Part shown: positions 1,720 to 39,935 of the stretch, one piece after another
Layout of the letters: every line of letters begins with the position of its first letter
Position numbering within the stretch: position 1 is the first letter of the stretch
Origin: a virus
Taxonomy: Duplodnaviria; Heunggongvirae; Uroviricota; Caudoviricetes
IMG/VR virus record: IMGVR_UViG_2623620502_000008
DNA: 39,935 nucleotides
Strand: one strand, 5' to 3'
Translations under genes and position numbers: made by a program
The notes under the pieces: generated by a model
The model's database searches: none
What the model was told of the DNA's origin: nothing
What the model saw: the letters and a program-made list of their open reading frames with translations, nothing else

Positions 1720-1720
1720 T

Positions 1721-5267: not shown

Positions 5268-5390
5268 TCAGGGTGCCATAACTCGTAGTTCTCAGCAATT
5301 CTCACTGGACGACAATAGACGTAAAAAAGCCCGCAGAGCTTGTGCTGTGTGGGCTTAGTAGACTTCATTGAACTTCAAACAACTAAAAAG

Positions 5391-5520: not shown

Positions 5521-6567
5521 TTAATGTTCTGTCGCCAATCTGTCGCCATTGTAGGTCAACGAAGGTTGAGCCTTCCCTTTGTTTGTTACAATTTCATCAA
5601 AGATAGCTGGATTATTATCTTTCAGTAATCTTGCTAGTATAATGATTTGCCCAGACGAGCCATCATCCTTGAATGAAAGGAAATTATCGGTAATATCAAG
5701 AATATCAATGGTAAATTTGAAGTAGGTTTCAATTGTATCGCCAAGTTCAATGCTGGACATGAAGTTAGTAATCATTTCATATCCATCAAAGTATAAAGTT
5801 GCATGTTCATTTAACTCCATGGGAGTTAGGCAAAGCATTCGATTAAGTTCGGATAAGTGTTTTTCTATTGAATGAAGAGATTGCATTTGACGGATTAAAA
5901 CTTCGGCAAACTGAGAGCCACGATTAGATGAATGTATCTTCTCTAGGTTTTTTAGTATATCAACCCAGTGATTATTTACTTCACGTATGTATTCTTTATC
6001 TGTATTTTTAGGCCGTCCCTTCTCTGGTGAGCTATTTATGAAAATATATCTATATAGATGTATTGGGTAGTTTATTTTATAACTTATCTCTTTAGTACCA
6101 TAATGACGTTCGCGTTTAATGGTTTTGTTAGGTAAATTGGTGAAATAATCAGTAACGAACTTTAAATGGCTATAGTAGCTATCAGATAGATTCTTTTGCT
6201 TGGTTTCCTCAATTTGTCGGTTTGTTTGAACTGTGCGGTGTATGTTTGCTACGACAGCAACAAATGGTATGGACAAAGAAAGTAAGGCGATAGGAAGCTT
6301 GCTAATTGCAATGAAATTATTAAAGCCCTCACTATCAAATTGAGGGGAATGTCCAAGCCAGGAAAATATACCAAAGTATATCGCTGAAAATACAGGAATC
6401 CTAAGTGATTGTTTAAATAAGTATTGACTTGTTAATGGCCTTTCATCCATGTTAAAGCCTTTTTTTGATACGCATAGATATAATTCAAGGCATATATATA
6501 AAAAATATATTATGATAAGTAAGTACGATATCCATGGGTATTGTTGGATATAGTTATTAACAAGCAC
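5521..6567 (-). CDS. membrane-anchored hypothetical protein (3 N-terminal TM helices plus about 230-aa soluble domain); prophage cargo between int and attL
   Basis: 348-aa ORF, AT-rich; start overlaps the int stop by 11 nt (same strand, suggesting translational coupling); TM segments YLLIIIYFLYICLELYLCV, IPVFSAIYFGIFSWL, IALLSLSIPFVAVVANI. Confidence 0.5.
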   Translation of the reverse strand: MLVNNYIQQYPWISYLLIIIYFLYICLELYLCVSKKGFNMDERPLTSQYLFKQSLRIPVFSAIYFGIFSWLGHSPQFDSEGFNNFIAISKLPIALLSLSIPFVAVVANIHRTVQTNRQIEETKQKNLSDSYYSHLKFVTDYFTNLPNKTIKRERHYGTKEISYKINYPIHLYRYIFINSSPEKGRPKNTDKEYIREVNNHWVDILKNLEKIHSSNRGSQFAEVLIRQMQSLHSIEKHLSELNRMLCLTPMELNEHATLYFDGYEMITNFMSSIELGDTIETYFKFTIDILDITDNFLSFKDDGSSGQIIILARLLKDNNPAIFDEIVTNKGKAQPSLTYNGDRLATEH

Positions 6568-7597
6568 TTTCTAATTTTCTCCATCCAAGGTTAGCAAGAG
6601 GATTTTTGGTTACAGCATCTTCCAGATGGTCGGGAGCGAAGTGGGCGTAAATCATTGTCATTTTTATATCGACATGGCCCAGAATATCGCGCAGCACCAG
6701 TATGTTTCCGCCATTCATCATAAAGTGACTTGCAAATGTATGTCGTAATACGTGTGTGCATTGCCCTTCTGGTAGCTCGATACCAGCTCGTTTTACCGCA
6801 CGTTCAAAAGCTTTCCTACAAGGTGTAAATAATTTTCCCCTATTCTTAGGCAGTTCTTCATATAAATCCTTTGAAATAGGCACTGTTCGGTTTTTCTTTC
6901 CTTTAGTCTTGGTATAAGTGATACGGTATTTTGATACCTGATGACTCTGTAGGTTTTCGGCTTCGCTCCAGCGTGCGCCGGTGGCCAAGCATATTTTTGC
7001 AATCATCAGCAGACTGGGGCTTTGAGAATCAGCACAGGCATCCAGCAGACGTTTAATTTCTTCCGGGGTCAGGAACGCCAATTCACCCTCAGCAATTTTA
7101 AATGTTGGCAGCCCAGCAAGCGGGTTGGGGGCTGACCAGTGGCCCAGCTTTTTCAGTGTACCAAAAACAGATGATAGGTTGCGCTGTTCAAGATTTACCG
7201 TGCGGGGCTTAACGGGCGACATAAGCGTGCCATCTTCATTTCGTACTTCACCTTTTAACCGTGCTTCGCGGTATTTCGTAAACTCACCAGCTGTCAGTTC
7301 TGAGGCGATGGGATCGCCTAGACCATTACAGATAATTCTAAGTTTCGCCATGAGGCGCTTGGGGTCTGCGAGTGTTTGACCATACAGGGAATACCACAGC
7401 TCAATTAATTCTGATAGATGTCGCCGATCTTCCTTTTCCCCTAGCCATGGTTTTTTGTTCACTTCTTCCATTGTGAAGCTTTCAAACGCAATGGCTTCGC
7501 CTTTGGTAGCAAATTGCTTACGCACGCGCTTACCATTGCGTCCATTGGGATAGCACTCACACAACCATTTTCCGTTCGGCTGTTTTCTGATGGTCAT
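6557..7597 (-). CDS. int: phage integrase (P2/186-type tyrosine recombinase)
   Basis: 346-aa ORF; catalytic region motifs ATGARWSE, HVLRHTFAS, and MIYAHF; position next to cI and near attL. Confidence 0.9.
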   Translation of the reverse strand: MTIRKQPNGKWLCECYPNGRNGKRVRKQFATKGEAIAFESFTMEEVNKKPWLGEKEDRRHLSELIELWYSLYGQTLADPKRLMAKLRIICNGLGDPIASELTAGEFTKYREARLKGEVRNEDGTLMSPVKPRTVNLEQRNLSSVFGTLKKLGHWSAPNPLAGLPTFKIAEGELAFLTPEEIKRLLDACADSQSPSLLMIAKICLATGARWSEAENLQSHQVSKYRITYTKTKGKKNRTVPISKDLYEELPKNRGKLFTPCRKAFERAVKRAGIELPEGQCTHVLRHTFASHFMMNGGNILVLRDILGHVDIKMTMIYAHFAPDHLEDAVTKNPLANLGWRKLESAC

Positions 7598-7600
7598 AAG

Positions 7601-8239
7601 TTAGAGGTTCTTGATTACTTTGACTGCACGTCCTACGACTTCCACATCATCTACAGAACATTCAAATGAAGTGTCATCTTGGTTAACTACTATTTTGTTT
7701 CCGGGTATGCGCGCAATTTTGACGATGCTTTTAACTCCGTCCATATCGACTAACCAGAAGCCATTACTGACTTGTTTAACAGACGTATCCACTACAAAGC
7801 TATCATTAGCTGTTTTAACAAATAAAGCGTTGGATGAGTCACCATCGAGCAGGCTGCTATCAAGAAGAATTTCATCACTTGGCTGCAGTTCGCCGTTCTT
7901 CAGTTCAACACGTTTGATGCTAGGAGCAACGATCTTAGAAAGTGGTCTTACAGTGACGGGAGGTTCATTTTTGAGATTTGTTTCTTCGTTCTCACACGCA
8001 TACATATCTCCTTGACCAGTAGCCAGCCATAGAAGGGAAACTCCTGTTTCAAGGGCACATTGGATTACCCATTCGGCAGGAAAGCTATCCCTTAAGTATC
8101 TGTTAGCCATAGTGCTTTTTGATACTTCCAGATGTTCGCAGAGCTGCTGTCGTGAGCTGAAGTTGTAAGCCTTAATAAGCCTATTAATCGCATCGCGCCC
8201 ACCACTATCATTCCCCGCCTTGATTAAACTCATAATCAA
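7601..8239 (-). CDS. cI: CI-like immunity repressor (N-terminal HTH)
   Basis: 212-aa ORF; HTH-like QQLCEHLEVSKSTMANRYL near N-terminus; divergent from apl/cII as in phage 186. Confidence 0.75.
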   Translation of the reverse strand: MIMSLIKAGNDSGGRDAINRLIKAYNFSSRQQLCEHLEVSKSTMANRYLRDSFPAEWVIQCALETGVSLLWLATGQGDMYACENEETNLKNEPPVTVRPLSKIVAPSIKRVELKNGELQPSDEILLDSSLLDGDSSNALFVKTANDSFVVDTSVKQVSNGFWLVDMDGVKSIVKIARIPGNKIVVNQDDTSFECSVDDVEVVGRAVKVIKNL

Positions 8240-8592: not shown

Positions 8593-8624
8593 GTTCAATT
8601 ATGAGAACTTTCTAAGGGGGTAGC

Positions 8625-9134: not shown

Positions 9135-9141
9135 GGTGTTT

Positions 9142-9438: not shown

Positions 9439-9533
9439 AGGATGGGACGTTTTTACGGGGAGAGCAGGTTAAAGAGACGATACGAAAAAATGTATCTCCT
9501 CTTGAGCGTTACCGTAAGAACAAAGAACGATAG
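9309..9533 (+). CDS. small early phage protein (hypothetical)
   Basis: 74-aa ORF with protein-like composition (YFFTLKDGTFLRGEQV). Confidence 0.35.
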   Translation: MYGAESEVVYQFRYRGESYSVPEDDLLCCYPSLSGDGSYFFTLKDGTFLRGEQVKETIRKNVSPLERYRKNKER

Positions 9534-9555
9534 CTGCGTTTGGGGGATATGAAGT

Positions 9556-9897
9556 ATGGCAATTAATGGCGCTGCAGCAACTGTTCCATTAAGCCCCGGT
9601 GAACGTCTGAATGGACTTAATCACATTGCGGAGTTAAGGGCGAAAGTTTTTGGCCTGAATATTGAGTCAGAGCTTGAGCGGTTTATTAAAGATATGCGTG
9701 ATCCACGGGATATCAATAATGAACAAAATAAACGGGCACTGGCTGCCATATTCTTTATGGCAAAAATTCCAGCTGAACGTCATAGCATCAGCATTAATGA
9801 GCTGACCACTGACGAAAAGCGGGAGCTGATTAAAGCAATGAATCATTTTCGTGCAGTGGTGAGCTTATTTCCCAGACGGCTAACCATGCCGAATTAA
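9556..9897 (+). CDS. hypothetical early phage protein
   Basis: 113-aa ORF in early operon, co-oriented, phage-like GC. Confidence 0.45.
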   Translation: MAINGAAATVPLSPGERLNGLNHIAELRAKVFGLNIESELERFIKDMRDPRDINNEQNKRALAAIFFMAKIPAERHSISINELTTDEKRELIKAMNHFRAVVSLFPRRLTMPN

Positions 9898-9964
9898 CCA
9901 ACTAATGAAATTAATGGCGTAAACCCGCCGGGCATCCCTTTATCTAAATTCAGGAGAATTGATT

Positions 9965-10198
9965 ATGCGTAATATTGAAACCATCACGACTAAAACCGGA
10001 CCGGATGATGCAGGGCTTAATATTTTACTGACAGAGGCTCGTCTGGAAGAACGCCGGGCAAGGGCTGAAGCAATGGCAGCTCGCCTTGATAGCCTGGCGT
10101 GTCATATCACATCCCGCCAACTAAACCACGTCGAAGCGGCAGAACTGCTGCGTGTGACTGCTGAAGCAATCCAGAACGAAGCGCAGGAGATCCACTGA
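9965..10198 (+). CDS. hypothetical early phage protein
   Basis: ATG at 9965 preceded by caggagaa RBS (ORF track starts at a TTG at 9959). Confidence 0.45.
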   Translation: MRNIETITTKTGPDDAGLNILLTEARLEERRARAEAMAARLDSLACHITSRQLNHVEAAELLRVTAEAIQNEAQEIH

Positions 10199-10425
10199 TG
10201 GCTGATGCAATGGATCTCGTACAGCAGCGAGTTGAAGAAGAACGCCAACGTCATATCCGTGCTGCCCGTGCCAAAACGCCGGGCGTGTCCCGCGTGCTTT
10301 GCGTTGAGTGTGAAGCGCCAATTCCGCCAGCACGCCGCCGTGCCATTCCGGGTGTGCAGCTTTGCATTACCTGTCAGGAAATCGCAGAGCTGAAAGGCAA
10401 ACATTACAACGGAGGTGCTGTATGA
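10198..10425 (+). CDS. TraR/DksA-family C4 zinc-finger protein
   Basis: 75-aa ORF with CVEC-x17-CITC four-cysteine arrangement near the C-terminus. Confidence 0.65.
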   Translation: MADAMDLVQQRVEEERQRHIRAARAKTPGVSRVLCVECEAPIPPARRRAIPGVQLCITCQEIAELKGKHYNGGAV

Positions 10426-11279
10426 GCACCATCCTGAAATGGGCGGGAAATAAAACCGCCATTATGTCCGAACTGAAAAAACACCTTCCTGCTGGCCCGC
10501 GACTGGTTGAACCTTTCGCGGGTTCCTGTGCTGTGATGATGGAGACGGATTACCCCAGCTATCTGGTTGCGGATATTAATCCTGATTTAATCAACCTCTA
10601 TAAAAAGGTTGCCTCTGATTGTGAATCGTTTATATCTCGCGCCAGAGTTTTATTTGAGATCGCAAACAGGGGGGTGGCTTATTACAACATAAGGCAGGAG
10701 TTTAATTACTCCACTGAAATTACTGATTTCATGAAAGCGGTATATTTCCTGTATCTCAATCGTCACGGTTACCGTGGTTTATGTCGCTATAACAAGAGCG
10801 GGCATTTCAACATTCCCTACGGTAATTATAAAAATCCGTATTTCCCTGAAAAAGAAATTCGCGCATTTGCAGAGAAAGCCCAGCGTGCAACGTTTATCTG
10901 CGCAAGCTTTGATGAAACGCTGGCGATGCTGCAGGTGGGGGATGTGGTGTATTGCGATCCGCCGTATGACGGTACGTTTTCCGGCTATCACACTGATGGT
11001 TTCACTGAAGATGACCAGTATCACCTGGCATCCGTTCTTGAACATCGGTCATCAGAAGGACATCCGGTCATTGTTTCTAACAGTGATACATCCCTGATCC
11101 GTTCGCTGTATCGCAATTTTACTCACCACTACATCAAGGCAAAACGCAGCATCGGTGTAGCAGCTGGTGAGAGTAAATCTGCAACAGAAATCATCGCTGT
11201 TTCCGGGCCGCGCTGCTGGGTGGGATTTGATCCTTCGCGTGGCGTGGATAGTTCTGCCGTGTACGGAGTGCGTGCATGA
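10422..11279 (+). CDS. dam: DNA adenine methyltransferase (Dam-like, N6-A MTase)
   Basis: Begins [11 protein letters not shown] (AdoMet-binding motif of Dam-class enzymes) and contains the catalytic DPPY tetrapeptide ([10 protein letters not shown]). Confidence 0.85.
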
Positions 11280-13690
11280 GCCATGCTGATATGAACAACT
11301 GCAGCGGCTTTAACAAGGTCGCCGCAGCATTCTCATGGAACAGCCCGAAAAAGGCCATTAACCCTTATCTGGACCCGGCGGAAGTTGCGCCGGTTTCTGC
11401 GCTTTCAAACCTGATCACTCTGTACGCTACCGATAACGAGCAGGAACAACTGCGCCGCGAGGCACTGAGTGATCAGGTCTGGGAGCGTTATTTCTTTAAT
11501 GAATCCCGTGATCCTGTCCAACGCGAAATGGAGCAGGATAAGCTCATTAGCCGGGCAAAGATGGCGCATGAGCAGCAGCGTTTTAATCCAGACATGGTCA
11601 TTCTGGCTGACGTCAACGCCCAGCCTTCCCATATCAGCAAGCCGCTGATGCAACGTATTGAATATTTCAGCAGCCTGGGCAGGCCAAAGGCTTATTCCCG
11701 CTATTTGCGTGAGACGATTAAGCCATGTCTGGAACGACTGGAGCATGTACGCGACAGCCAGCTATCTGCATCTTTTCGTTTTATGGCAAGCCATGAAGGG
11801 CTGGACGGTCTGCTGATCCTGCCTGAAATGAGTCAGGATCAGGTGAAACGCCTGTCTACCCTTGTCGCTGCGCATATGAGCATGTGTCTTGATGCCGCTT
11901 GTGGTGATTTGTACGCCTCCGATGATGTTAAGCCAGAAGAAATCCGCAAGACATGGGAAAAGGTGGCTGCAGAAACCCTGCGACTGGATGTCATACCGCC
12001 TGCGTTTGAGCAACTCCGCCGGAAAAGAAACCGCCGCAAACCTGTGCCTTATGAACTCATTCCGGGTTCGCTGGCGCGTATGCTGTGCGCCGACTGGTGG
12101 TATCGGAAATTATGGAAGATGCGTTGCGAATGGCGGGAAGAGCAGTTGCGTGCTGTCTGCCTGGTCAGCAAAAAAGCATCTCCCTATGTCAGCTATGAAG
12201 CCGTGATGCATAAACGTGAGCAGCGCCGTAAGTCGCTGGAGTTTTTCCGTTCTCATGAACTGGTGAACGAAGACGGCGACACGCTGAACATGGAGGATGT
12301 GGTAAACGCCAGCAGCAGCAACCCGGCGCATCGCCGCAACGAGATGATGGCCTGTGTTAAAGGCCTGGAGCTTATCGCGGAAATGCGTGGTGACTGCGCC
12401 GTTTTCTACACCATCACCTGTCCGTCACGTTTCCATTCCACGCTAAATAACGGCAGGCCAAACCCGACCTGGACAAACGCGACGGTAAGACAAAGCAGCG
12501 ATTATCTGGTCGGCATGTTTGCTGCATTTCGTAAGGCTATGCACAAAGCCGGGTTGCGCTGGTATGGCGTGCGGGTGGCTGAGCCGCATCATGACGGCAC
12601 AGTTCACTGGCACCTGTTGTGTTTCATGCGCAAAAAAGACCGCCGCGCCATTACTGCATTGTTGCGTAAGTTTGCCATCCGAGAAGACCGCGAGGAGCTG
12701 GGCAATAACACGGGGCCACGCTTTAAGTCTGAGCTGATAAACCCGCGCAAAGGAACGCCGACAAGCTACATTGCGAAATATATCAGTAAGAATATTGACG
12801 GGCGTGGTCTGGCTGGCGAGATCAGTAAGGAAACGGGTAAATCCCTGCGTGATAACGCTGAATACGTTAATGCCTGGGCGTCTCTGCATCGTGTTCAGCA
12901 ATTCCGCTTCTTTGGCATTCCGGGGCGTCAGGCTTACCGTGAACTGCGATTGCTGGCTGGTCAGGCGGCAAGGCAACAGGGTGACAAAAAAGCAGGTGCG
13001 CCGGTACTGGATAACCCGCGCCTTGATGCCATCCTGGCTGCTGCTGATGCTGGTTGTTTTGCCACCTACATCATGAAGCAGGGCGGCGTACTGGTTCCCC
13101 GCAAATATCACCTCATCAGAACCGCTTATGAAATCAACGAAGAGCCAACCGCCTATGGCGATCACGGTATTCGTATTTATGGCATCTGGTCACCCATTGC
13201 AGAGGGCAAGATCTGCACTCATGCAGTGAAGTGGAAAATGGTTCGTAAGGCCGTTGACGTTCAGGAGGCGGCAGCCGACCAGGGCGCTTGCGCCCCTTGG
13301 ACTCGTGGCAATAACTGTCCCCTTGCTGAAAATTTGAACCAACAAGGGAAAGACAAATCAGCTGATGGGGATACCAGGACGGACATTACCCGCATGGATG
13401 ACAAGGAGTTGCACTATTACCTGCACAGTATGAGCAAAAAAGAGCGCCGGGAACTGGCTGCAAGGTTACGCCTGGTGAAACCGAAACGGCGTAAAGACTA
13501 CAAACAGCGAATTACAGACCATCAGCGACAGCAGCTCGTCTATGAACTGAAGTCCAGAGGATTTGATGGCAGCGAGAAAGAGGTCGATTTACTCCTTCGC
13601 GGCGGCAGTATTCCGTCAGGAGCAGGCCTGCGTATCTTCTATCGGAACCAGCGTTTGCAGGAAGATGATAAGTGGCGAAACCTGTATTAA
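11276..13690 (+). CDS. A: replication initiation protein A (P2 gpA-type rolling-circle endonuclease)
   Basis: 804-aa ORF; HUH-type motif (VHWHLLCF) and downstream tyrosine motif (YIAKYISKN) as in P2 A; position after the early region. Confidence 0.85.
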
Positions 13691-13782
13691 TTACGCGGGT
13701 TAACAATTCGTGCTCTTAATAATACCAGGCATATCAGGCTGATGAACGTAAAAAAACGTTTTACATCAGTATGATTATTATA

Positions 13783-13802
13783 TACTGTAAATATAAACAG
13801 TG
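13783..13802. promoter_or_regulatory. LexA box (SOS operator) upstream of the Tum/DinI-like module
   Basis: TACTGTAAATATAAACAGTG = CTGT-N8-ACAG palindrome matching the LexA consensus, about 40 bp upstream of the ORF starting at 13844. Confidence 0.6.
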
Positions 13803-13843
13803 GTTATGCATACAGTATTGCTTGTGGTGTCATAGGAGGAAAG

Positions 13844-14032
13844 ATGCAGGACTATTTTTTGGAGTCTTTGAAGCTCCAGCGCATTGATTTTTTTCTTAAG
13901 CTTGTAGCGGCTAGTGAGTGTAGTGATGAAGAGAAGGGGCTGGCTTTGCAGTGGGTTTCTGAACTGACAGATGAACTCATGGCAAAAATCAGAACCCACG
14001 AATACAACCGCTCAATGGATGTCATCAGCTGA
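13844..14032 (+). CDS. small protein, possible Tum-like antirepressor (N-terminal portion equivalent)
   Basis: 62-aa ORF with aggagga RBS; LexA box upstream; followed by DinI-like ORF, the arrangement of 186-like SOS-inducible antirepressor modules. Confidence 0.4.
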   Translation: MQDYFLESLKLQRIDFFLKLVAASECSDEEKGLALQWVSELTDELMAKIRTHEYNRSMDVIS

Positions 14033-14042
14033 GGTGACTTTT

Positions 14043-14276
14043 ATGCGCATTGAAATAATGATCGATAAAGAGCAGAAGATTAGCCAGTCTACCCTGGATG
14101 CCCTTGAATCCGAGCTTTACCGCAATCTGCGCCCCCTGTATCCCAAAACGGTAATTCGTATCCGCAAAGGTAGCTCTAACGGTGTGGAACTGACCGGACT
14201 GCAACTGGACGAAGAAAGAAAACAAGTGCTGAAAATTATGCAGAAGGTGTGGGAAGACGACTGCTGGCTGCATTGA
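14043..14276 (+). CDS. DinI-family protein (Tum C-terminal-like / DinI-like)
   Basis: 77-aa ORF starting MRIEIMIDKEQ... and ending ...WEDDCWLH, resembling DinI-family proteins (MRIEV... N-terminus, acidic aromatic C-terminus); gaggtg RBS upstream. Confidence 0.7.
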   Translation: MRIEIMIDKEQKISQSTLDALESELYRNLRPLYPKTVIRIRKGSSNGVELTGLQLDEERKQVLKIMQKVWEDDCWLH

Positions 14277-14391
14277 TAGGTTTCGTTTGTAATGAGTCAT
14301 GTTTTTTGAGTCCGATAGTAGACAGCTAGAGGGATAAATGATTAATAGATAGATTAAACATAGTGATGGGCGTAAAATCGCGCGCATTTTA

Positions 14392-15306
14392 TTGGCAACG
14401 GATCTGAACTCAATGGCGGATAAGACTCAATCAGTAAGTATTGTGTATCAAGGCAAAGCTCTCGACGATCATAAGATGGATATTCTTTCGTTTGCGAAAA
14501 GTTTGCAGGGGCTAGGTGAGGCTATCTACTCTGCAAATGAGATTGTAAACGGAGGGCGAGACATTGAAGTTAACGTTGACGCTGAATTGATAGCCGGTTC
14601 CTTTGGGTTTGATATTGAGGTTGTACAACATCTAGCTAATGCTAAAGATGTTGTACAAATTTTAGGTTTGTCAGCCATTCCTTTAGCCGTTGGCGGTGCT
14701 ACAGTTTTAGAGGTTCTCAAGAAGCTTAACGGGCGTAAGATCGACATAGTCGAGAAAGCTAACGGTAGTGACAAAGTTAAGCTGAAAGTCGATGGTGAAG
14801 AGATTGTTTGCTCTGAAGATGTCGAAAAAATCGTTAATGCCCCAGAGATTCGTAAGGCTGTTGACGCGTTTGTCAGACAGCCTCTGTTACAAGATGGTAT
14901 CGACAATTTTGTGGTAAAAAAATCGCGCACCTCTAAGAAAGAAATCCTCAAAATTCATAAAGATGAGGCAGAAGAGTTTAAGTCGCCAAAAGTTCTCTTT
15001 GAAACCAAAGAAGAAGTTGACGAATTTGAAACAACCGTGACATTCGTTTCGGCGCATACTGACAAAAAAAGTGGCTGGCGTGTTGAGTTTGGCGGTGAAA
15101 AGCGCAATGTCAGAATGGAAGATAATGAGTTCATCAAGCTTGTTACTGGACCAGACGCCCCCAAAATTTTTGGCGAATTGTTTGCTGTGAAGATGAAGAA
15201 AATTGTGAAAGATTCCGGTGGCCAGGTAGACGAAAAGTTATCGATCATCAAAGTGGGTCGACACTTTGCCGCCAAAGATAGAAAAATAAAACCTGATGCG
15301 GATTAA
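14392..15306 (+). CDS. hypothetical soluble protein (cargo; first gene of 3-gene cluster)
   Basis: 304-aa Lys/Glu-rich ORF with no motif I recognise (alternative start 14413); at the position of P2 tin/old accessory genes (after A, before cos). Confidence 0.45.
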   Translation: MATDLNSMADKTQSVSIVYQGKALDDHKMDILSFAKSLQGLGEAIYSANEIVNGGRDIEVNVDAELIAGSFGFDIEVVQHLANAKDVVQILGLSAIPLAVGGATVLEVLKKLNGRKIDIVEKANGSDKVKLKVDGEEIVCSEDVEKIVNAPEIRKAVDAFVRQPLLQDGIDNFVVKKSRTSKKEILKIHKDEAEEFKSPKVLFETKEEVDEFETTVTFVSAHTDKKSGWRVEFGGEKRNVRMEDNEFIKLVTGPDAPKIFGELFAVKMKKIVKDSGGQVDEKLSIIKVGRHFAAKDRKIKPDAD

Positions 15307-15308
15307 AA

Positions 15309-15572
15309 ATGTCTATAGATATTAGTGTGTTAGGATGGTTGGGGCTGCTTGTTGCAGCTCCAGCTATATTTATAGGTGCTAGAGTGGCTATACGTAGCCT
15401 GCTCGATCGAGTTATTGTCGAAACAAAAGTTTCTATCACTTATACTGATGCAAACAAAAATGTCTATAAAACAAATATTTATATAAACAATGATGATGAG
15501 TTAATAAAGCTCATCGATGATATAGCAGAGAAAAATAAGCGTGAGAGGAAGGAGTCAGCCTCTCATGCCTGA
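15309..15572 (+). CDS. small membrane protein (single N-terminal TM helix), hypothetical
   Basis: 87-aa ORF starting 3 nt after previous stop; TM segment LGWLGLLVAAPAIFIGARVAI. Confidence 0.4.
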   Translation: MSIDISVLGWLGLLVAAPAIFIGARVAIRSLLDRVIVETKVSITYTDANKNVYKTNIYINNDDELIKLIDDIAEKNKRERKESASHA

Positions 15573-15981
15573 ACAAAAGAAAACAAGCGGTAAAGCAGTC
15601 GGTGTTACAGGTGGCGGCGGTGTAGGCCTTTTCCTAATAAAGCTGGCTAGCTTCATTACAGATCCAACATGGAAAGACCTTTACATTGCTTCAATACCGA
15701 TGGTGTCAATTCTTTTAAGCGAAGTTTTTACTTTTGCATGGACGATTTATGCTGTTGATCCGCAAGAAATCAAACTGAAAAGGCGGTTGAAGGCTCTGAA
15801 GAAGCAAGCCGAAGCAGTTTTAAATGCACCATCGTCCCCTGTTTCTCCAGAAATGCGAGAGAAAGCGCAGGCTCGTTACGACGTGATCTGTGGAATTGAA
15901 ATGGGAATTTACCCCCTCTCAATTGTAAATACGCTAGATGGAAAAGTATCCCCCACAGCGCAAACGCCGGACGTTAAATAG
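15565..15981 (+). CDS. small membrane protein (2 predicted TM helices), hypothetical
   Basis: ATG at 15565 with aggaaggag RBS, overlapping previous stop; Gly-rich then hydrophobic segments (GVGLFLIKLASFI; IPMVSILLSEVFTFAWTIYAV). Confidence 0.4.
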   Translation: MPEQKKTSGKAVGVTGGGGVGLFLIKLASFITDPTWKDLYIASIPMVSILLSEVFTFAWTIYAVDPQEIKLKRRLKALKKQAEAVLNAPSSPVSPEMREKAQARYDVICGIEMGIYPLSIVNTLDGKVSPTAQTPDVK

Positions 15982-16044
15982 CAGTTTCTACTTTGCATGT
16001 CTATGCTGCATGAAATCGCATGATCGTTTGAGGATCGTTTTTGC

Positions 16045-16073
16045 AAAAGCCCGCCAGAACTGGCGGGCTTTTG
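16045..16073. terminator. rho-independent terminator-like hairpin (A-tract/GC stem/T-tract)
   Basis: aaaagcccgccag-aa-ctggcgggcttttg, perfect 9-bp GC-rich stem flanked by A and T runs, downstream of the 3-gene cluster. Confidence 0.5.
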
Positions 16074-16117
16074 CGTAGAGCATGCATCTGCATGAAAACC
16101 ACTACATAAAGCGGGCA

Positions 16118-16136
16118 GGCGTGGCGGGGATACGAG
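16118..16136. other. candidate cos (cohesive-end) site of the prophage
   Basis: ggcgtggcggggatacgag; first 13 nt match my recollection of the P2/186 cohesive-end sequence (GGCGTGGCGGGGA...); located in the non-coding stretch between the late-accessory region and the portal side. Confidence 0.3.
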
Positions 16137-16224
16137 CGCGCGCATTGAGTTAAAATTTCTTGAGTTGATGAAAATAAGATGTATTTTAATTTGGCACAGA
16201 AAAACCTAATAACTCACAAGGATA

Positions 16225-17160
16225 ATGATAATAATGCAAATAGTTTCCATCATAAATTATAAAGGTGGCGTTGGTAAAACAACAGTTACGTCTAATTTAG
16301 CCGCTGAATTAGCATTCCGAGGAAAGAATGTTTTAGTTCTGGATATGGATGCTCAGGCAAGCCTGACATTTTCGTTTCTAACTCCCGATTATTGGGATGA
16401 ACATCTTAAAAATGAAAGGACCATTAAAAACTGGTTTGATTGTATTAGTCAGGGAGAGCAAACAATGCCTCTTTCGACTCTAAGAGTACGACCTGAACCT
16501 GTTAATAGTAGATTTGATAGAAAAGGTGGATGTTTGGATTTAATATCTTCCCACCTCGGGTTGATAAATGTTGATCTTGAGCTTGCGACTCTTCTAGGAG
16601 GGGCTAGCCCCAGTCAAACTCAAAAAAAATATCTTAAAGTTCATGGTAAACTTAGAGAGGAACTTCAAATACTAGCTGACGAAATGAATTATGATGTTGT
16701 TTTAATTGATTGTCCACCTAACTTTAATATCGTAACAAAAAATGCTTTGATTGCATCAGATAAGATTTTGATACCAGCAAAACCTGATTATTTGTCAACG
16801 CTAGGTATTGATTATTTAAAAAGAAGCGTAGATTCTCTAGTTACAGACTATAATTTCTATGCCGATAAAGATGAAGATTATGAAAGGGTATCTCCTGAGA
16901 TTCTCGGAGTAGTTTTTACTATGATTCAAATTCATTCAGAACAACCTATTGCCGCGCAAAGACAGTATATTGCGCAGACAAAACGTCTAGGTGTTCCCGT
17001 ATTTGATGCTATTTTTAGGGAGAATAAAACTATCTTTGCTGATGCCCCTAGAGATGGAATTCCTGTAGCATTAATTGGCTACTCGCATTCAACTCACTCT
17101 TCTATTGTAGGAGAGATTGAGGATTTTGTTGATGAATTCCTTCAAAAGATTGGAGAATAA
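16225..17160 (+). CDS. ParA/MinD/Soj-family P-loop ATPase (deviant Walker A)
   Basis: 311-aa ORF; NYKGGVGKTTVTSNLA deviant Walker A near N-terminus (likely start at ATG 16234), DMDAQ (A'-like) and VLIDCPP (Walker B-like); strongly AT-rich. Confidence 0.7.
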   Translation: MIIMQIVSIINYKGGVGKTTVTSNLAAELAFRGKNVLVLDMDAQASLTFSFLTPDYWDEHLKNERTIKNWFDCISQGEQTMPLSTLRVRPEPVNSRFDRKGGCLDLISSHLGLINVDLELATLLGGASPSQTQKKYLKVHGKLREELQILADEMNYDVVLIDCPPNFNIVTKNALIASDKILIPAKPDYLSTLGIDYLKRSVDSLVTDYNFYADKDEDYERVSPEILGVVFTMIQIHSEQPIAAQRQYIAQTKRLGVPVFDAIFRENKTIFADAPRDGIPVALIGYSHSTHSSIVGEIEDFVDEFLQKIGE

Positions 17161-17162
17161 AA

Positions 17163-17558
17163 GTGAGTAAAGCTAAAACTTTAACTGTGCTATTTCGTGA
17201 ATTACAAGATGCAGTTCTTGAACTCAATGAAGGGGAATTGGAAAAAATTATTTCAGGCGAGTATCAATTCGTCCTTAAGGTAGTTAAAAAACGTAATAGT
17301 ACTGGTGCAAAGATAAGTTCAGTAGATAATTTTAGCTATAACGAATTGCTTGTTTTACTTAACCAGTGTGAGTCAAGAGAACAAGGTTGCGAGCTTTTGT
17401 CGCGTGAGCTTAAGACTAAATCTGAGTTTGAAAAATTCGCTCGTCATGTCGAGGTCGCTGTAATGAAAAGCGATAAACTCGAGAAAATTAGAGATAATAT
17501 TATTGAGTCGACAGTAGGTGCTAAACTCCGTTCTGATGCTATTCAGAATAAAAAGTAA
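17163..17558 (+). CDS. hypothetical protein, partner of ParA-like ATPase (helical, charged)
   Basis: 131-aa ORF with GTG start 2 nt after ParA-like stop, ggagaa RBS; no recognisable motif. Confidence 0.45.
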   Translation: MSKAKTLTVLFRELQDAVLELNEGELEKIISGEYQFVLKVVKKRNSTGAKISSVDNFSYNELLVLLNQCESREQGCELLSRELKTKSEFEKFARHVEVAVMKSDKLEKIRDNIIESTVGAKLRSDAIQNKK

Positions 17559-36377: not shown

Positions 36378-36859
36378 TGATGGTGCTGGGATTGTACGTG
36401 TTTATGCTGCGCACCGTTCCGTATCAGGAACTGCAGTATCAACGCAGCTGGCGACATGCGGCAAACAGCCGGGTAAACCGTCGTCCGTCCACGCAGTTTC
36501 TGGGACCGGACAACGACATGCTGACGCTTTCCGGTGTTCTTATGCCGGAGATAACGGGCGGCAGGCTGTCGTTGCTGGCTCTGGAGCAGATGGCAGAACA
36601 GGGAAAAGCATGGCCCCTGATTGAAGGCAGCGGCACGATTTACGGCATGTATGTGATTGAGGGACTGAATCAGACTAAAACGGAGTTCTTCCGCGACGGT
36701 ATGCCGCGCAGGATTGAGTTCACCCTGTCGCTAAAACGCGTGGATGAATCCCTGTCCGATATGTTCGGTGATCTCAGTGCGCAACTGAATAATCTGCAGG
36801 GAACGGCAACATCTGCCTTAAGCGATATCAGTAAAACGGTGGGAGGGCTGCTGTCGTGA
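36374..36859 (+). CDS. U: tail protein U
   Basis: 161-aa ORF. Confidence 0.8.
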   Translation: MMMVLGLYVFMLRTVPYQELQYQRSWRHAANSRVNRRPSTQFLGPDNDMLTLSGVLMPEITGGRLSLLALEQMAEQGKAWPLIEGSGTIYGMYVIEGLNQTKTEFFRDGMPRRIEFTLSLKRVDESLSDMFGDLSAQLNNLQGTATSALSDISKTVGGLLS

Positions 36860-37956
36860 ATTTCAGCTCTGAACTGCTTAACAAAGGCAACAAAACTCCG
36901 GCATTCAGCATCAGTATTGAAGGCAGGGATATCACCACTGTGCTGGACAACCGCCTGATGGGGCTGACGCTGACGGATAACCGGGGCTTTGAAGCGGACC
37001 AGCTTGATCTGGAGCTGGACGACGCCGATGGAAAAATCGTGCTGCCGCGCCGTGGTGCGGTCATTACGCTGGCGCTGGGCTGGAAGGGGCAGCCGCTTTT
37101 CCCGAAAGGGGCATTCACGGTGGACGAGATTGAACACACTGGCGCACCGGACCGCCTGACTATCCGGGCGCGAAGTGCTGATTTTCGTGAAACGCTGAAT
37201 ACCCGTCGTGAAAAGTCGTGGCACAAGACCACCGTTGGGGAAGTGGTGAAGGAAATAGCTGCGCGGCACAAACTGAAGATGGCATTGGGTAAAGACCTGT
37301 CAGATAAACCCGTGGAACATATAGACCAGACCAATGAGAGTGACGGCAGTTTTCTGATGCGGCTGGCGCGACAGTACGGTGCCATCGCGTCGGTGAAAAA
37401 TGGCAATCTGTTATTCATCCGGCAGGGACAGGGCAAAAGCGCCAGCGGTAAACCTCTGCCGGTGATCACTATCACACGCAAGGACGGCGACAGTCACCGC
37501 TTTACCCTGGCAGATCGCGGAGCCTATACGGGCGTAATTGCCAGTTGGTTGCATACCCGCGAACCCGCGAAGAAAGAAAGCACCACGGTGAAGCGTAAGC
37601 GCAGGACCGCAAAGCAGAAGAAAGAGCCGGAAGCGAAGCAGGGCGATTACCTGGTGGGTACGGATGAAAACGTGCTGGTACTTAATCGCACTTATGCCAA
37701 CCGGAGCAACGCTGAACGGGCAGCGAAAATGCAGTGGGAACGCCTGCAACGCGGCGTTGCGTCATTCTCGCTACAACTGGCGGAAGGTCGGGCAGATCTC
37801 TACACGGAAATGCCAGTGAAAGTCAGTGGCTTTAAACAGCCGATAGATGATGCGGAATGGACCATTACGACTCTGACACATACCATCAGCCCGGATAACG
37901 GTTTTACAACCAGTATTGAACTCGAAGTGAAGATTGATGATCTTGAAATGGAATAA
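36856..37956 (+). CDS. D: tail protein D (late control gene D)
   Basis: 366-aa ORF. Confidence 0.8.
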   Translation: MNFSSELLNKGNKTPAFSISIEGRDITTVLDNRLMGLTLTDNRGFEADQLDLELDDADGKIVLPRRGAVITLALGWKGQPLFPKGAFTVDEIEHTGAPDRLTIRARSADFRETLNTRREKSWHKTTVGEVVKEIAARHKLKMALGKDLSDKPVEHIDQTNESDGSFLMRLARQYGAIASVKNGNLLFIRQGQGKSASGKPLPVITITRKDGDSHRFTLADRGAYTGVIASWLHTREPAKKESTTVKRKRRTAKQKKEPEAKQGDYLVGTDENVLVLNRTYANRSNAERAAKMQWERLQRGVASFSLQLAEGRADLYTEMPVKVSGFKQPIDDAEWTITTLTHTISPDNGFTTSIELEVKIDDLEME

Positions 37957-38024: not shown

Positions 38025-38243
38025 ATGATGAATTGTCCGAAGTGTGGTCATGCGGCGCACACAAGGAGCAGTTTTCAAGTAACAGAAAGCACCAAAGAGC
38101 GTTACTGCCAGTGCCAAAATATTAACTGCGGGAGCACTTTTGTTACCCATGAAACAGTGGTCCGGTTTATTGTGACACCTGCATTGATTGCTACAGCCCC
38201 TCCACATCCATTGCCAGGTGGTCAGGGGCATATGAATTTTTGA
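38025..38243 (+). CDS. ogr: Ogr/Delta-family zinc-finger late transcription activator
   Basis: MMNCPKCGHAAHTRSS...KERYCQCQNINCGSTF...HPLPGGQ matches the Ogr Cys4 pattern (ORF track start at 37980 is probably too far upstream). Confidence 0.85.
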   Translation: MMNCPKCGHAAHTRSSFQVTESTKERYCQCQNINCGSTFVTHETVVRFIVTPALIATAPPHPLPGGQGHMNF

Positions 38244-38251
38244 GAAAGAGA

Positions 38252-38272
38252 ACCTGCTACGGCAGGTTTTTA
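38252..38272. terminator. terminator hairpin shared by convergent ogr and BRCT-like gene
   Basis: acctgc-tacg-gcaggttttt immediately after the ogr stop. Confidence 0.5.
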
Positions 38273-38752
38273 TTCATCTGGGATCTCACCCGTTTCAAGA
38301 AAATGTATAAAGCCAGGCTCATCTATGATGATTGTGCCTTTCATCCTGGCTGCCGATACTTTTGATGGGCCTGCATTGTAACCGCAACAGAGCATCTGAA
38401 GGCTTTGGGTTACAGAGGTTCTTACCGTTAATCCTTGTTCATTCGCCTTATCAACCAATCTTTCTTTATCTGCTTTCTTAAATCCGGTGAAGCACACATC
38501 GAATGTATTTTTTTTCGGACCAGACTGCTTAGTGAGATGTGAGTAGTTTTCGGGGAGGAATGACGCGCATTCCTGAATGGCTTGTTCTGGTGAATCGTAC
38601 TGTTTAAGAATGCGGTCTTTTCGGAAGGTTTTTATTCGATCGGTGTTCTTACAAATGCCCTGTATATGATTTTCGCTATAACTGATGCTCTGTACTGAGT
38701 GAACACCGATACGACCATTTGCATTGATGTAAACAAAGTGAAGTTCTTCCAT
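38270..38752 (-). CDS. hypothetical protein with C-terminal BRCT-like domain; prophage cargo between ogr and attR
   Basis: 160-aa ORF; C-terminal DVCFTGFKKADKERLVDKANEQGLTVRTSVTQSLQMLCCGYNAGPSKVSAARMKGTIIIDEPGFIHFLETGEI resembles BRCT domains of NAD-dependent ligase type. Confidence 0.5.
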   Translation of the reverse strand: MEELHFVYINANGRIGVHSVQSISYSENHIQGICKNTDRIKTFRKDRILKQYDSPEQAIQECASFLPENYSHLTKQSGPKKNTFDVCFTGFKKADKERLVDKANEQGLTVRTSVTQSLQMLCCGYNAGPSKVSAARMKGTIIIDEPGFIHFLETGEIPDE

Positions 38753-38875
38753 GTGAAACCTCTTTGCATGATTTCAAGATGGCGACAGGCAAGATGGACG
38801 CAAAAGTCTGTCGCCATTTTGCCGCCACTACCAAAGAAAAAGGGGCTACGCTTTCACGTAACCCCTTGATTTATT

Positions 38876-38920
38876 TGGTGGAGCTGGCGGGAGTTGAACC
38901 CGCGTCCGAAATTCCTACAT
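38876..38920. repeat. attR: 45-bp core identical to attL, forming the functional 3' end of ssrA
   Basis: Exact copy of 5391..5435. Confidence 0.85.
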
Positions 38921-39238
38921 CCTCGGTACTACATGCTTAGTCAGTCTTTACATTCGCTTGCCAGCTGCGGACGGACACGCCACTAACAAACTAGCCTGAT
39001 TAAGTTTTAACGCTTCAACCCCAGGCAGGGCTTCCACGCGATCTCTTTTGGGTTTGACCTCTCTTGATCCCCGTCCTAAGAGCGGAGGCTAGGGAGAGAG
39101 GGCTCTAAGCAGGTTATTAAGCTGCTAAAGCGTAGTTTTCGTCGTTTGCGACTATTTTTTGCGGCTTTTTACGAGGCCAACCGCCCCTCGGCATGCACCT
39201 TGGGTTTCGCAAATCCCGTCGAATCCAGAATCAGCCCC
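38876..39238 (-). ncRNA. ssrA: tmRNA (transfer-messenger RNA, SsrA)
   Basis: Minus-strand sequence begins GGGGCTGATTCTGGATTCGACGGG, contains the tag ORF GCAAACGACGAAAACTACGCTTTAGCAGCTTAA (ANDENYALAA*) at 39117..39149, and ends ...GGGTTCAACTCCCGCCAGCTCCACCA. Confidence 0.9.
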
Positions 39239-39452: not shown

Positions 39453-39935
39453 TTAACGGTGGGCGTTTTTCATGATACGTGCTTTATCCACCTGCCATTC
39501 GCGTTCTTTGATATCTGAACGTTTATCGTGCTGTTTTTTACCTTTGGCGACGCCGATTTTCACTTTGCACCAGGCATTTTTCCAGTACAGGGAGAGCGCC
39601 ACTACGGTATAGCCTTCTCGATTGACGCGACCGTACAATGAGTCCAGTTCGCGCTGGTTGAGAAGTAACTTGCGGGTACGGGTAGGATCGCACACCACAT
39701 GCGTGGAGGCCACGGCCATTGGCGTGATGTTAGCGCCAAACAGAAATGCCTCTCCGTCACGCAGAAGGACGTAGCTGTCGCTGATATTGGCTTTTCCTGC
39801 GCGCAGGGATTTAACCTCCCAGCCTTGCAGGGCAAGTCCCGCTTCGAACTCTTCTTCGATAAAGTATTCGTGACGGGCGCGCTTGTTAAGCGCGATGGTC
39901 GCTGAACCAGGTTTATGTGCTTTTTTCTTCGTCAT
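39453..39935 (-). CDS. smpB: SsrA-binding protein SmpB
   Basis: 160-aa [31 protein letters not shown]... essentially matching E. coli SmpB from memory; upstream of ssrA on the same strand. Confidence 0.95.

What the first reader, a model, noticed from the sequence alone, without database searches (positions are those of the whole stretch)
38270..38752. BRCT-like domain protein as a moron between ogr and attR
A 160-aa minus-strand ORF opposes the late operon and shares a terminator hairpin with ogr. Its C-terminal ~75 residues read like a BRCT domain (a phosphate/DNA-end or protein-phosphopeptide binding fold) and its ~80-residue N-terminal part is unidentified. A stand-alone BRCT protein at a prophage end suggests a modulator of host DNA-repair or ligase pathways or a sensor component, and does not look like a typical P2 gene.
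Basis: partly seen in the sequence, partly recalled or inferred. Interest (0 to 1): 0.5.

Follow-up and report, generated by a model that had tools for sequence, protein, structure and literature searches.

The report
Prophage WYL–BRCT DNA-sensing accessory protein
A real 160-residue gene at the right end of a P2/186-like E. coli prophage encodes a small protein with a ligand-sensing WYL domain and a ligase-type, DNA-end-binding BRCT domain; its family sits next to the repressor gene in many related prophages and has never been tested experimentally.

Summary
ORF 38270-38752(-) is a conserved gene under purifying selection, convergent with ogr across a shared hairpin. It lies 124 bp downstream of the host tmRNA gene, in a P2/186-like prophage inserted in ssrA.

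It is not a ligase, whatever the database labels say, and it is not PADLOC PDC-S48.

The family is large: 2,697 50%-identity clusters at E≤1e-3, about 30% of the best ones membrane-anchored. In deposited phage genomes it occurs only in temperate phages, almost all P2-like. In more distant relatives it lies directly downstream of the repressor, as repressor→WYL-BRCT→int or facing gene D. In this lineage int-attP lies between cI and the gene, so integration strands it next to ssrA.

Function is untested. My best inference is a lysogen-expressed nucleic-acid sensor or binder used in phage-phage conflict. The rivals are a DNA-damage co-regulator of the lysis-lysogeny switch and a host-repair or anti-defence modulator.

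Interest is moderate: a widespread uncharacterised family with a clear experimental path.

The parts
38270..38752 (-). CDS of the 160-aa WYL-BRCT protein (stop codon 38270-38272)
   Evidence: ORF list and sequence. PHROG 2561 full-length match at E=5.6e-77. 122 homologues. dN/dS 0.11-0.5.
38588..38752 (-). WYL domain (residues ~1-55, a five-strand Sm-like barrel) with the signature K41-T-F-R-K-D-R-I48 and invariant Y8. Two helices (residues 55-73) and a low-confidence linker follow.
38285..38506 (-). BRCT domain (residues ~83-156) of the LigA/RFC1 class. Invariant T89-G90-F91 and K131; near-invariant K93 and K96.
38759..38763 (-). Shine-Dalgarno AGAGG, 6 nt before the ATG
   Evidence: Read directly from the sequence. 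A purine-rich SD is kept in homologous loci.
38251..38268 (.). Hairpin between the convergent ogr and WYL-BRCT stop codons; a plausible bidirectional terminator
   Evidence: -17.7 kcal/mol on + and -11.8 kcal/mol on -.
38025..38243 (+). ogr (late activator), the last gene of the late region
   Evidence: Pfam Ogr_Delta E=1.5e-20. RefSeq annotation of identical DNA.
38780..38827 (.). attP P'-arm: Int arm-type repeats TGGCGRCA at 38809-38816 and 38820-38827 (-, 11-bp spacing) and an inverted copy at 38780-38787 (+). They fill most of the 88 bp between the ssrA terminator and the start codon.
   Evidence: Pattern search: 13 matches against 3.6 expected, with a matching pair at 5530-5548 on the attL side. 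The motif is conserved upstream of the gene even in prophages using other att sites. Assignment as Int arm sites is inference.
38840..38867 (-). Strong intrinsic terminator just after the tmRNA 3' end. It is phage-supplied and also present in the free-phage attP of Yersinia phage MLG42.
   Evidence: -25 kcal/mol, z=-7.4.
38876..38920 (.). attR core (3' end of ssrA); the attL copy is at 5391-5435
   Evidence: Exact 45-bp repeat. tmRNA at 38876-39238(-).
5521..8239 (-). Lysogeny operon at the other prophage end: cI (7601-8239, 186-type), int (6557-7597) and orf348 (5521-6567). In the circular phage the WYL-BRCT gene follows these on the same strand, across attP.
   Evidence: Pfam. PHROG 17460 for orf348. 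The free-phage order cI-int-attP-WB is seen in Yersinia phage MLG42.

Best explanation
Shown:
- The gene encodes a soluble 18-kDa protein with no catalytic domain.
- It has an N-terminal WYL domain. This is the Sm-like ligand-sensing barrel that binds ssDNA in CapW, DriD and PafBC.
- It has a C-terminal BRCT domain of the LigA/RFC1 class, which keeps the T-G...K phosphate pocket.
- It belongs to a large uncharacterised family. In P2/186/HP1-like prophages that family forms the tail of the leftward lysogeny transcription unit, immediately after the repressor gene and before int or facing the end of the tail operon.
- In this E. coli lineage the int-attP module lies between cI and the gene. Integration therefore leaves it at the right prophage end, on the same strand as host ssrA and 124 bp downstream of it.

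Inferred:
- It is made in lysogens. Here the route would be read-through of the ssrA terminator or an unrecognised promoter overlapping the attP arm.
- It acts stoichiometrically by recognising a nucleic-acid structure. The most likely target is an ssDNA/dsDNA junction, nick or end carrying a 5' phosphate.
- It serves the prophage in conflict with other phages: superinfection exclusion or defence, by capturing or flagging the ends or the replication and recombination intermediates of incoming DNA.
- In the many membrane-anchored or domain-fused relatives, the same module would be the sensor of a single-protein system.
For: Domains:
- BRCT.
- WYL.
- Confident models: pLDDT 91.5 and 89.6.
- Invariant T89, G90, K131 and the TFRKDRI motif.

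Lysogeny-operon position:
- Mannheimia PHL101: the cI stop is 4 nt from the gene's start, with an annotated RBS.
- Burkholderia and Vibrio PV94.
- Xenorhabdus: cI→WB→int with gaps of 34 and 2 nt.
- Pectobacterium and Serratia.
- In 23 species the same-strand upstream neighbour hits Phage_CI_repr (8), HTH_3 (8) or Peptidase_S24 (6).
- Gene D is convergent downstream in 12 loci.

Accessory, hotspot-like behaviour:
- The slot is variable and GC is low.
- The gene occurs in 171 of 5,426 complete E. coli genomes.
- The cI-int interval of K139-like phages and the int-att interval of P2-like phages are published defence hotspots (PMC9122126; PMC13586616).

Lifestyle and architecture:
- Only temperate phages carry it among 50,697 deposited genomes.
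- 46 of the 150 best family representatives have a TM-like segment.
- WYL domains sense ssDNA as an infection or damage cue (PMC11662680).
Against: - No experiment exists for any member. No paper in the library links a BRCT protein to anti-phage activity.
- The protein has no effector domain, so how binding would block a phage is speculative.
- The arginines that flank the WYL motif and contact ssDNA in CapW (RWHVR) are absent here (ENHIQ). The ligand may therefore not be ssDNA.
- The PADLOC match to the candidate PDC-S48 covers only the BRCT part.
- No sigma-70 promoter was found upstream, and a strong terminator separates the gene from ssrA and, in the phage form, from int. Expression in this lineage is unproven.
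- Adjacency to the repressor fits a regulatory role equally well.
Confidence: 0.4

Rival explanations
1. DNA-damage-responsive co-regulator of the lysis-lysogeny switch. The WYL domain senses ssDNA or another damage signal. The BRCT domain then couples this to the repressor, the integrase or the induction machinery, tuning induction or stabilising lysogeny.
For: The gene is immediately downstream of, and apparently co-transcribed with, prophage repressors in many genera. WYL regulators DriD, PafBC and CapW are ssDNA-activated damage sensors. A 2026 preprint independently proposes that cI/BRCT modules in Roseobacter prophages respond to DNA damage, without experiments (PMC13345283).
Against: - The neighbouring repressors belong to at least two unrelated classes: 186-type CI and LexA-like HTH-S24. 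The S24 class already self-cleaves.
- This prophage has its own Tum/DinI-like gene, the type of gene through which 186 is SOS-induced.
- In the enterobacterial clade the gene is separated from cI by int, attP and a terminator.
- Closely related prophages lack the gene.
- There is no DNA-sequence-reading domain.
- Membrane-anchored relatives are hard to fit to a switch regulator.
Confidence: 0.25
2. Modulator of host DNA repair or ligation, or an anti-defence factor. By occupying 5'-phosphate nicks, gaps or ends it would compete with LigA, RecFOR/RecBCD or end- and ssDNA-sensing host defences. That would protect phage DNA or damp SOS.
For: The BRCT is closest in sequence to LigA and RFC1 BRCTs that bind 5'-phosphate DNA. 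The WYL fold matches ssDNA-bound structures. The protein has no catalytic domain, as expected for a competitor or decoy.
Against: The family is absent from virulent phages among 50,697 genomes, where anti-defence and DNA-protection genes are common. Its position in the lysogeny operon, not the early lytic operon, is conserved. TM-anchored relatives do not fit. A constitutive nick or gap binder in a lysogen would be expected to be costly.
Confidence: 0.15
3. Accessory factor of site-specific recombination, acting architecturally or in directionality at attP, attL or attR.
For: In this clade the start codon is 28 bp from the last Int arm-type repeat. In others the gene lies between cI and int with a 2-nt gap to int.
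Against: In HP1/Mannheimia-type prophages the gene follows cI and faces gene D, with int elsewhere. The family also occurs outside prophages and as membrane proteins. No known recombination directionality factor has this fold.
Confidence: 0.07
4. It is what the databases call it: a DNA ligase, a ligase subunit or an exonuclease.
For: PHROG 2561 and RefSeq phage records label it 'DNA ligase', and phage Cartapus labels it 'putative exonuclease'. BFVD neighbours carry the same label.
Against: The matches to LigA and DEDDh models cover only their C-terminal BRCT region and score 20-26 bits against cut-offs of 389-444. The protein has 160 residues, all accounted for by WYL plus BRCT. There is no adenylation, OB or nuclease domain. 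The prophage has no ligase A subunit.
Confidence: 0.01

Closest known systems
BRCT domains of NAD-dependent DNA ligase LigA and of clamp-loader subunit RFC1 (PDB 1DGS, 1L7B, 2K7F, 7TFH)
   Same: This is the best sequence match of the family profile (E 3e-5 to 4e-4) and the fold is the same. The TG motif and the 'AG(P/S)xK' lysine are shared. In RFC1 these residues contact the 5' phosphate; that point is from my memory of Kobayashi et al. 2010 and was not checked here.
   Different: Here the BRCT is not attached to a ligase or clamp-loader body. It follows a WYL domain. DNA binding is untested.
wHTH-WYL-WCX regulators CapW, BrxR, DriD and PafBC
   Different: There is no HTH and no WCX dimerisation domain, so it cannot be a transcription factor of that type. 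The W-Y-L tripeptide is H-I-Q, and the arginines flanking it in CapW are missing.
Lysogeny-operon 'morons' such as lambda rexAB, Vibrio K139 glo, and the cargo of the P2-like and K139-like defence hotspots
   Same: It is an accessory gene placed after the repressor so that lysogens express it. Its distribution among related phages is patchy and its slot is variable.
   Different: There is no homology to any validated exclusion or defence protein and no effector domain. Activity is untested.
PADLOC candidate PDC-S48
   Same: The C-terminal BRCT matches (E=1.8e-7).
   Different: Only profile positions 335-406 of 411 match. The remaining ~330 residues of PDC-S48 have no counterpart, and WYL-BRCT relatives also match only there.
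WYL-BRCT architecture listed by Makarova et al. 2014 (PMC4012209)
   Same: It is the same domain combination, mentioned in one sentence among WYL fusions.
   Different: That paper gives no family description, genomic context or function.

Membership tests
BRCT domain (Pfam PF00533) | Profile match at Pfam's gathering score | tested here: inconclusive
   This sequence scores 19.6 bits against a 21.3-bit cut-off, E=1.1e-3. At family level the match is clear: 34/47 and 51/63 relatives hit BRCT with best E of 2e-6 and 6e-46. The family profile hits RFC1 and LigA BRCT chains at 3e-5.
BRCT domain (Pfam PF00533) | Alpha/beta fold with four parallel strands flanked by three helices | tested here: met
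BRCT domain, 5'-phosphate-binding LigA/RFC1 class | Phosphate pocket: S/T-G after strand 1 and a Lys at the start of helix 2 | tested here: met
   T89, G90 and K131 are invariant and K93 and K96 are ≥90% conserved in 47 sequences. They align with the TG and AGPKK motifs of yeast Rfc1.
BRCT domain, 5'-phosphate-binding LigA/RFC1 class | Binding to 5'-phosphorylated DNA ends, nicks or gaps | not testable with these tools
   Needs EMSA or anisotropy with 5'-P against 5'-OH substrates.
WYL domain (Pfam PF13280) | Profile match | tested here: inconclusive
   This sequence gets no WYL hit at E≤10. Relatives do: 4/47 (best 1.5e-5), 26/63 (best 1.2e-8) and PADLOC WYL profiles down to 4e-9.
WYL domain (Pfam PF13280) | Sm-like five-strand barrel most similar to solved WYL domains | tested here: met
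WYL domain (Pfam PF13280) | Signature motifs: W-Y-L strand and R-x-F-R-x-D-R-I | tested here: inconclusive
   K41-T-F-R-K-D-R-I48 is present, with T42 invariant and F43 and R44 ≥90% conserved. The W-Y-L position reads H-I-Q, and the flanking arginines that contact ssDNA in CapW are absent.
wHTH-WYL-WCX transcription regulators (CapW/BrxR/DriD/PafBC) | N-terminal winged-HTH DNA-binding domain and C-terminal WCX domain | tested here: not met
   The WYL barrel starts at residue 3. After it come two helices and the BRCT domain. No HTH family was hit.
NAD-dependent DNA ligase (label of PHROG 2561 and RefSeq) | Adenylation (nucleotidyl-transferase) and OB domains | tested here: not met
   TIGR00575 matches only its positions 549-650 at 19.7 bits against a 444-bit cut-off. 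All 160 residues are WYL plus BRCT.
PADLOC candidate defence gene PDC-S48 | Full-length match to the PDC-S48 profile | tested here: not met
   Only profile positions 335-406 of 411 are matched. The same holds for longer relatives.
Prophage defence-hotspot cargo (P2-like and K139-like phages) | Sits in a variable slot between conserved phage genes | tested here: met
   The ogr-ssrA slot carries a ParA-family gene instead in E. coli 1002W03. Relatives lie in the cI-int interval, which Rousset et al. 2022 describe as a hotspot in K139-like phages. The int-att and int-primase intervals are minor P2 hotspots.
Prophage defence-hotspot cargo (P2-like and K139-like phages) | Measurable protection against phage infection | not testable with these tools
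   Needs plaque assays. No published test was found.

The most novel reading that the evidence does not exclude
WYL-BRCT proteins are a new, widespread class of sensor-only or sensor-plus-membrane-anchor anti-phage factors. One small protein reads a composite DNA signature, ssDNA through WYL and a 5'-phosphate junction or end through BRCT. This signature marks incoming or replicating foreign DNA. In lysogens the protein blocks the competitor directly by end or gap capture, without any enzyme. The family's fixed place behind prophage repressors would then define a third, so far unrecognised conflict slot of P2-like phages. In this lineage the slot is wired to the host ssrA promoter by integration.
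Probability: 0.25. Interest if true: 0.7.

Novelty: new variant of a known kind. Interest (0 to 1): 0.5.

Why it matters
Both domains are well known, but the pairing has only been listed in passing. No member has been studied. Databases mislabel it as a ligase or an exonuclease.

The family is large, with 2,697 clusters at E≤1e-3. It has a very regular position behind prophage repressors across Gammaproteobacteria and beyond. It is present in about 3% of complete E. coli genomes.

If it is a defence or exclusion factor, it would be an unusually minimal one and would give a handle on how cells recognise foreign DNA ends or gaps. If it is a switch co-regulator, it would add an ssDNA-sensing, SOS-independent input to P2/186-type induction. 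Either outcome can be tested with a deletion lysogen and simple DNA-binding assays.

A practical gain is corrected annotation: 'WYL-BRCT domain protein', not 'DNA ligase'.

Tried and rejected
1. 'DNA ligase' or 'exonuclease': rejected. Only the BRCT region matches those models.
2. Membership of PADLOC PDC-S48 or SspE: rejected. The overlap is BRCT only.
3. Promoter search upstream of the gene: no sigma-70-like site was found in 38753-38875. My manual inspection found nothing convincing either. The conserved upstream motif turned out to be a pair of Int arm-type repeats, not a promoter.
4. Identifying the domains fused to the module in longer relatives: Pfam gave nothing at E≤1e-3. A PDB profile search of the recurrent ~200-aa 'domain X' gave nothing. 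Only TM segments could be recognised.
5. Context of the membrane-anchored relatives: the contigs were too short to be informative.
6. A sequence-level PDB search with the WYL part alone gave only non-significant matches to PafBC and PafC. The fold search was needed.
7. The IMG/VR scan returned almost only near-identical enterobacterial copies at contig ends. It confirmed the prophage-edge position but added no diversity. The one-genome-per-species scan supplied that.
8. The AFDB50 fold library was unavailable. The BFVD search found only similarly unannotated 'putative DNA ligase' or BRCT proteins.
9. Literature: no paper combines WYL and BRCT beyond one sentence. None links BRCT to anti-phage activity. 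The Mannheimia phage comparison in the library says nothing about the gene.

Full report
**1. What is in the sequence**

The window holds a P2/186-like prophage inserted into the 3' end of the host tmRNA gene.
- ARAGORN finds ssrA at 38876-39238(-), and smpB follows at 39453-39935(-).
- A 45-bp core is repeated exactly at 5391-5435 (attL) and 38876-38920 (attR).

The left end of the prophage carries the lysogeny operon on the minus strand:
- a 186-type cI (7601-8239; Phage_CI_repr plus Phage_CI_C);
- a P2-type integrase (6557-7597);
- an unannotated 348-aa ORF (5521-6567) pressed against attL.

The right end carries gene D (36856-37956), ogr (38025-38243) and then the ORF in question. The same DNA, at 98-100% identity, occurs in 171 of 5,426 complete E. 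coli genomes. There it is annotated 'hypothetical protein' or 'BRCT domain-containing protein' between ogr and ssrA.

**2. The observation**

ORF 38270-38752(-) is as described: 160 aa, an ATG start and an AGAGG Shine-Dalgarno 6 nt upstream.

It is convergent with ogr, and the 26-nt gap between the stop codons holds a 7-bp GC-rich hairpin (38251-38268). On the + strand the hairpin is followed by UUUUAUU (-17.7 kcal/mol, z=-4.3). On the - strand it has a weaker U tract (-11.8 kcal/mol, z=-3.6). A shared bidirectional terminator is therefore plausible.

The ORF is a real gene:
- There are 122 homologues with E≤1e-3, down to ~30% identity.
- Ten alignment columns are invariant and sixteen more are ≥90% conserved.
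- dN/dS is 0.11-0.5 against close relatives. Against ~70%-identical ones dN is 0.22 with saturated dS.
- One relative (L061) is a pseudogene with an in-frame stop.

**3. Domain content**

*C-terminal half.*
- Pfam BRCT matches residues 84-145 at E=1.1e-3, just under the gathering score.
- 34 of 47 aligned homologues hit BRCT.
- A profile of the family hits the BRCT domains of yeast and human RFC1 and of Thermus LigA at 3e-5 to 4e-4.
- An AlphaFold2 model built on the 47-sequence alignment has mean pLDDT 91.5.
- The invariant T89-G90 and K131, and the near-invariant K93 and K96, align with the TG and AG(P/S)xK motifs shared with RFC1 and LigA. From my memory of the RFC1-DNA work these residues contact the 5' phosphate; I did not check that here.

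- It is a five-strand Sm-like barrel followed by two helices.
- Pfam WYL is hit by 4 of 47 close relatives and 26 of 63 longer ones (best 1.2e-8). PADLOC's WYL profiles hit relatives too.
- The signature K-T-F-R-K-D-R-I is present.
- The eponymous W-Y-L reads H-I-Q. The arginines that flank it and touch ssDNA in CapW are missing. The ligand therefore need not be ssDNA.

*What it is not.*
- It has no HTH and no WCX, nuclease, ATPase or ligase domain.
- The labels 'DNA ligase' (PHROG 2561, RefSeq phage records) and 'putative exonuclease' (phage Cartapus) come only from the BRCT tail of LigA and DEDDh models.
- PADLOC's candidate PDC-S48 also shares only its BRCT end.

**4. The family and where it lives**

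An exhaustive HMM search finds 2,697 50%-identity clusters at E≤1e-3 and 200 at E≤1e-30. Of the best 150:
- 86 are stand-alone proteins of ≤200 aa;
- 64 are longer, and 44 of those carry a hydrophobic TM-like segment, usually N-terminal;
- others carry extra BRCT repeats or a recurrent ~200-aa domain with no Pfam or PDB match.

Among 50,697 deposited phage genomes only 28 records carry the gene. All are temperate, and 27 are Peduoviridae from Escherichia, Yersinia, Burkholderia, Vibrio and Mannheimia.

Position is the most informative feature.
- In Mannheimia PHL101 the gene starts 4 nt after the cI stop, with an annotated RBS inside cI.
- In Xenorhabdus the order is cI - 34 nt - gene - 2 nt - int.
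- Pectobacterium, Serratia, Burkholderia and Vibrio PV94 show repressor→(0-1 gene)→gene→(0-2 genes)→int.
- In a one-genome-per-species scan, 23 loci have a same-strand ORF ending within 160 nt upstream. Of these ORFs, 8 hit Phage_CI_repr, 8 hit HTH_3 and 6 hit Peptidase_S24. That makes roughly 14 of 23 prophage repressors, from at least two unrelated classes.
- The rest include AbiGi-, MrcB/HNH- and MUG113-type neighbours.
- Downstream, gene D is convergent in 12 loci and a P2-type int follows in 5.

The family is thus the last gene of the leftward lysogeny unit, facing the end of the tail operon.

In the enterobacterial clade (≥59% identity) the gene lies at the very edge of predicted prophages. 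The free-phage genome of Yersinia phage MLG42 shows why: the order is cI→int→attP→gene. The int-attP module lies between the repressor and the gene, so integration moves the gene to the opposite prophage end.

Here that places it 124 bp downstream of ssrA on the same strand. In between lie a strong phage-supplied terminator (38840-38867, -25 kcal/mol) and the attP P' arm.

The P' arm has two TGGCGRCA repeats 11 bp apart and an inverted third. They mirror a pair at 5530-5548 on the attL side (13 matches in the window against 3.6 expected). They are conserved upstream of the gene even where a different att site is used.

No sigma-70 promoter was detected in the 88 bp left. Expression in this lineage must therefore come from terminator read-through (ssrA in the lysogen, cI-int in the phage) or from an unrecognised promoter overlapping the Int sites. 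This is unresolved.

The gene behaves as cargo:
- GC is 41.8% against 50.9% for the prophage.
- P2 itself has no such gene (from my knowledge of the P2 genome; no P2 record appears among the phage hits).
- In E. coli 1002W03 a prophage with a 94.5%-identical D-ogr region carries a ParA-family gene in the same slot and orientation.
- Published work places defence hotspots in the cI-int interval of K139-like Vibrio phages (PMC9122126). Minor hotspots lie in the int-att and int-primase intervals of P2-like phages (PMC13586616).
- Neither paper's text mentions BRCT. The only supplements checked, those of PMC9122126, do not mention it either.

**5. How it most likely works**

*Shown:*
- a catalytically inert WYL+BRCT protein;
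- a conserved phosphate pocket;
- membership of lysogeny operons;
- restriction to temperate phages;
- frequent membrane anchoring in relatives.

*Inferred:*
- It is expressed in lysogens.
- It recognises a nucleic-acid structure. The likeliest is an ss/ds junction, nick or end with a 5' phosphate, because RFC1/LigA-type BRCTs bind such sites and WYL domains bind ssDNA.
- It serves the prophage against competing phages, by capturing or flagging incoming ends or replication and recombination intermediates.
- The membrane-anchored and domain-fused relatives would be single-protein versions with a built-in location or effector.

I put this at about 0.4.

*Rivals:*
- Damage-sensing co-regulator of the switch (0.25). 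Repressor adjacency and an independent, untested suggestion for Roseobacter prophages favour it (PMC13345283). Against it: the partner repressors are of unrelated classes, the gene is detached from cI here, this prophage has a Tum/DinI-like gene, and close relatives lack the gene.
The absence of the family from virulent phages and its lysogeny-operon position weaken it.
- Recombination accessory factor (0.07). HP1-type arrangements, where int is elsewhere, weaken it.
- A true ligase or nuclease is excluded by domain content.

**6. Comparison with what is known, and novelty**

The domains are textbook. The WYL-BRCT combination is listed in one sentence of Makarova et al. 2014. I found no description of the family, its prophage context or any function.

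It works like a WYL sensor joined to a LigA/RFC1-type DNA-end reader. It is not a member of the wHTH-WYL-WCX regulators, of LigA or of PDC-S48.

I rate it a new variant of a known kind: a lysogeny-operon accessory gene built from known sensor domains. Interest is 0.5. A specialist would not be astonished, but the family is large, consistently placed, mislabelled in databases and directly testable.

Noticed in passing
window 5521-6567 (-): A 348-aa ORF lies between int and attL, and its 3' end overlaps the attP P-arm repeats. It has no Pfam hit, matches PHROG 17460 (unknown function, E=1e-155) and has a weak PADLOC '2TM effector' match. GC is 33.8%. In the circular phage it is the direct neighbour of the WYL-BRCT gene across attP. 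Yersinia phage MLG42 lacks it. It is a second cargo gene in the int-att slot that a 2026 survey calls a minor P2 defence hotspot.
   Followed up: partly
window 1-5390: Left of attL there is a second integrative element at ssrA. It has a P4-type integrase (3996-5267, -) and a gene pair with HEF_HK/HATPase_c (1-1719) and Response_reg_2 (1703-3469) domains. This indicates tandem occupation of the ssrA site.
   Followed up: partly
window 13971-17558: The replication-gene-A to portal hotspot holds four items: a DinI/Tum-like gene (13971-14276), a 304-aa protein matching PADLOC candidate PDC-S42 (14392-15306, E=8e-44), a 146-aa unknown, and a ParA-like ATPase (16225-17160) followed by a 131-aa unknown. 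GC is 39.9%.
   Followed up: partly
window 5530-5548 and 38780-38827: TGGCGRCA repeats with 11-bp spacing lie on both sides of the att core, plus an inverted copy. They are probably Int arm-type binding sites. The motif is conserved upstream of the WYL-BRCT gene in prophages that use other attachment sites (L082, L084, L086).
   Followed up: partly
L100 (E. coli 1002W03) 4085-5161: A related prophage at ssrA carries a 358-aa ParA-family gene in place of the WYL-BRCT gene, in the same orientation between ogr and ssrA.
   Followed up: no
L061 5001-5480: A 97%-identical copy of the gene has an in-frame stop at codon 123, and its att region is altered. It is a decaying copy.
   Followed up: no
proteins P0130, P0155, P0178, P0179, P0184 (C-terminal) and P0122, P0124, P0129 (N-terminal): A recurrent ~200-aa domain is fused to the WYL-BRCT module. 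It has conserved GW.F.V...LDIK and WTQG..F.F..G motifs and no Pfam or PDB sequence match. A second related group (P0182, P0199, P0233, P0251, P0259) shares an 'EGDVFY' motif.
   Followed up: partly
L009 (Ca. Pseudothioglobus) 7001-14440: Outside prophages, a family member sits in an integrative island next to an Mrr-type restriction nuclease, a DNA methylase, AlpA and a P4-type integrase. In other species the upstream neighbours are AbiGi-, MrcB/HNH- or MUG113-type genes (L117, L134, L128).
   Followed up: no
window 10362-11279 (+): A Dam-like N6-adenine methyltransferase lies in the early operon of the prophage.
   Followed up: no
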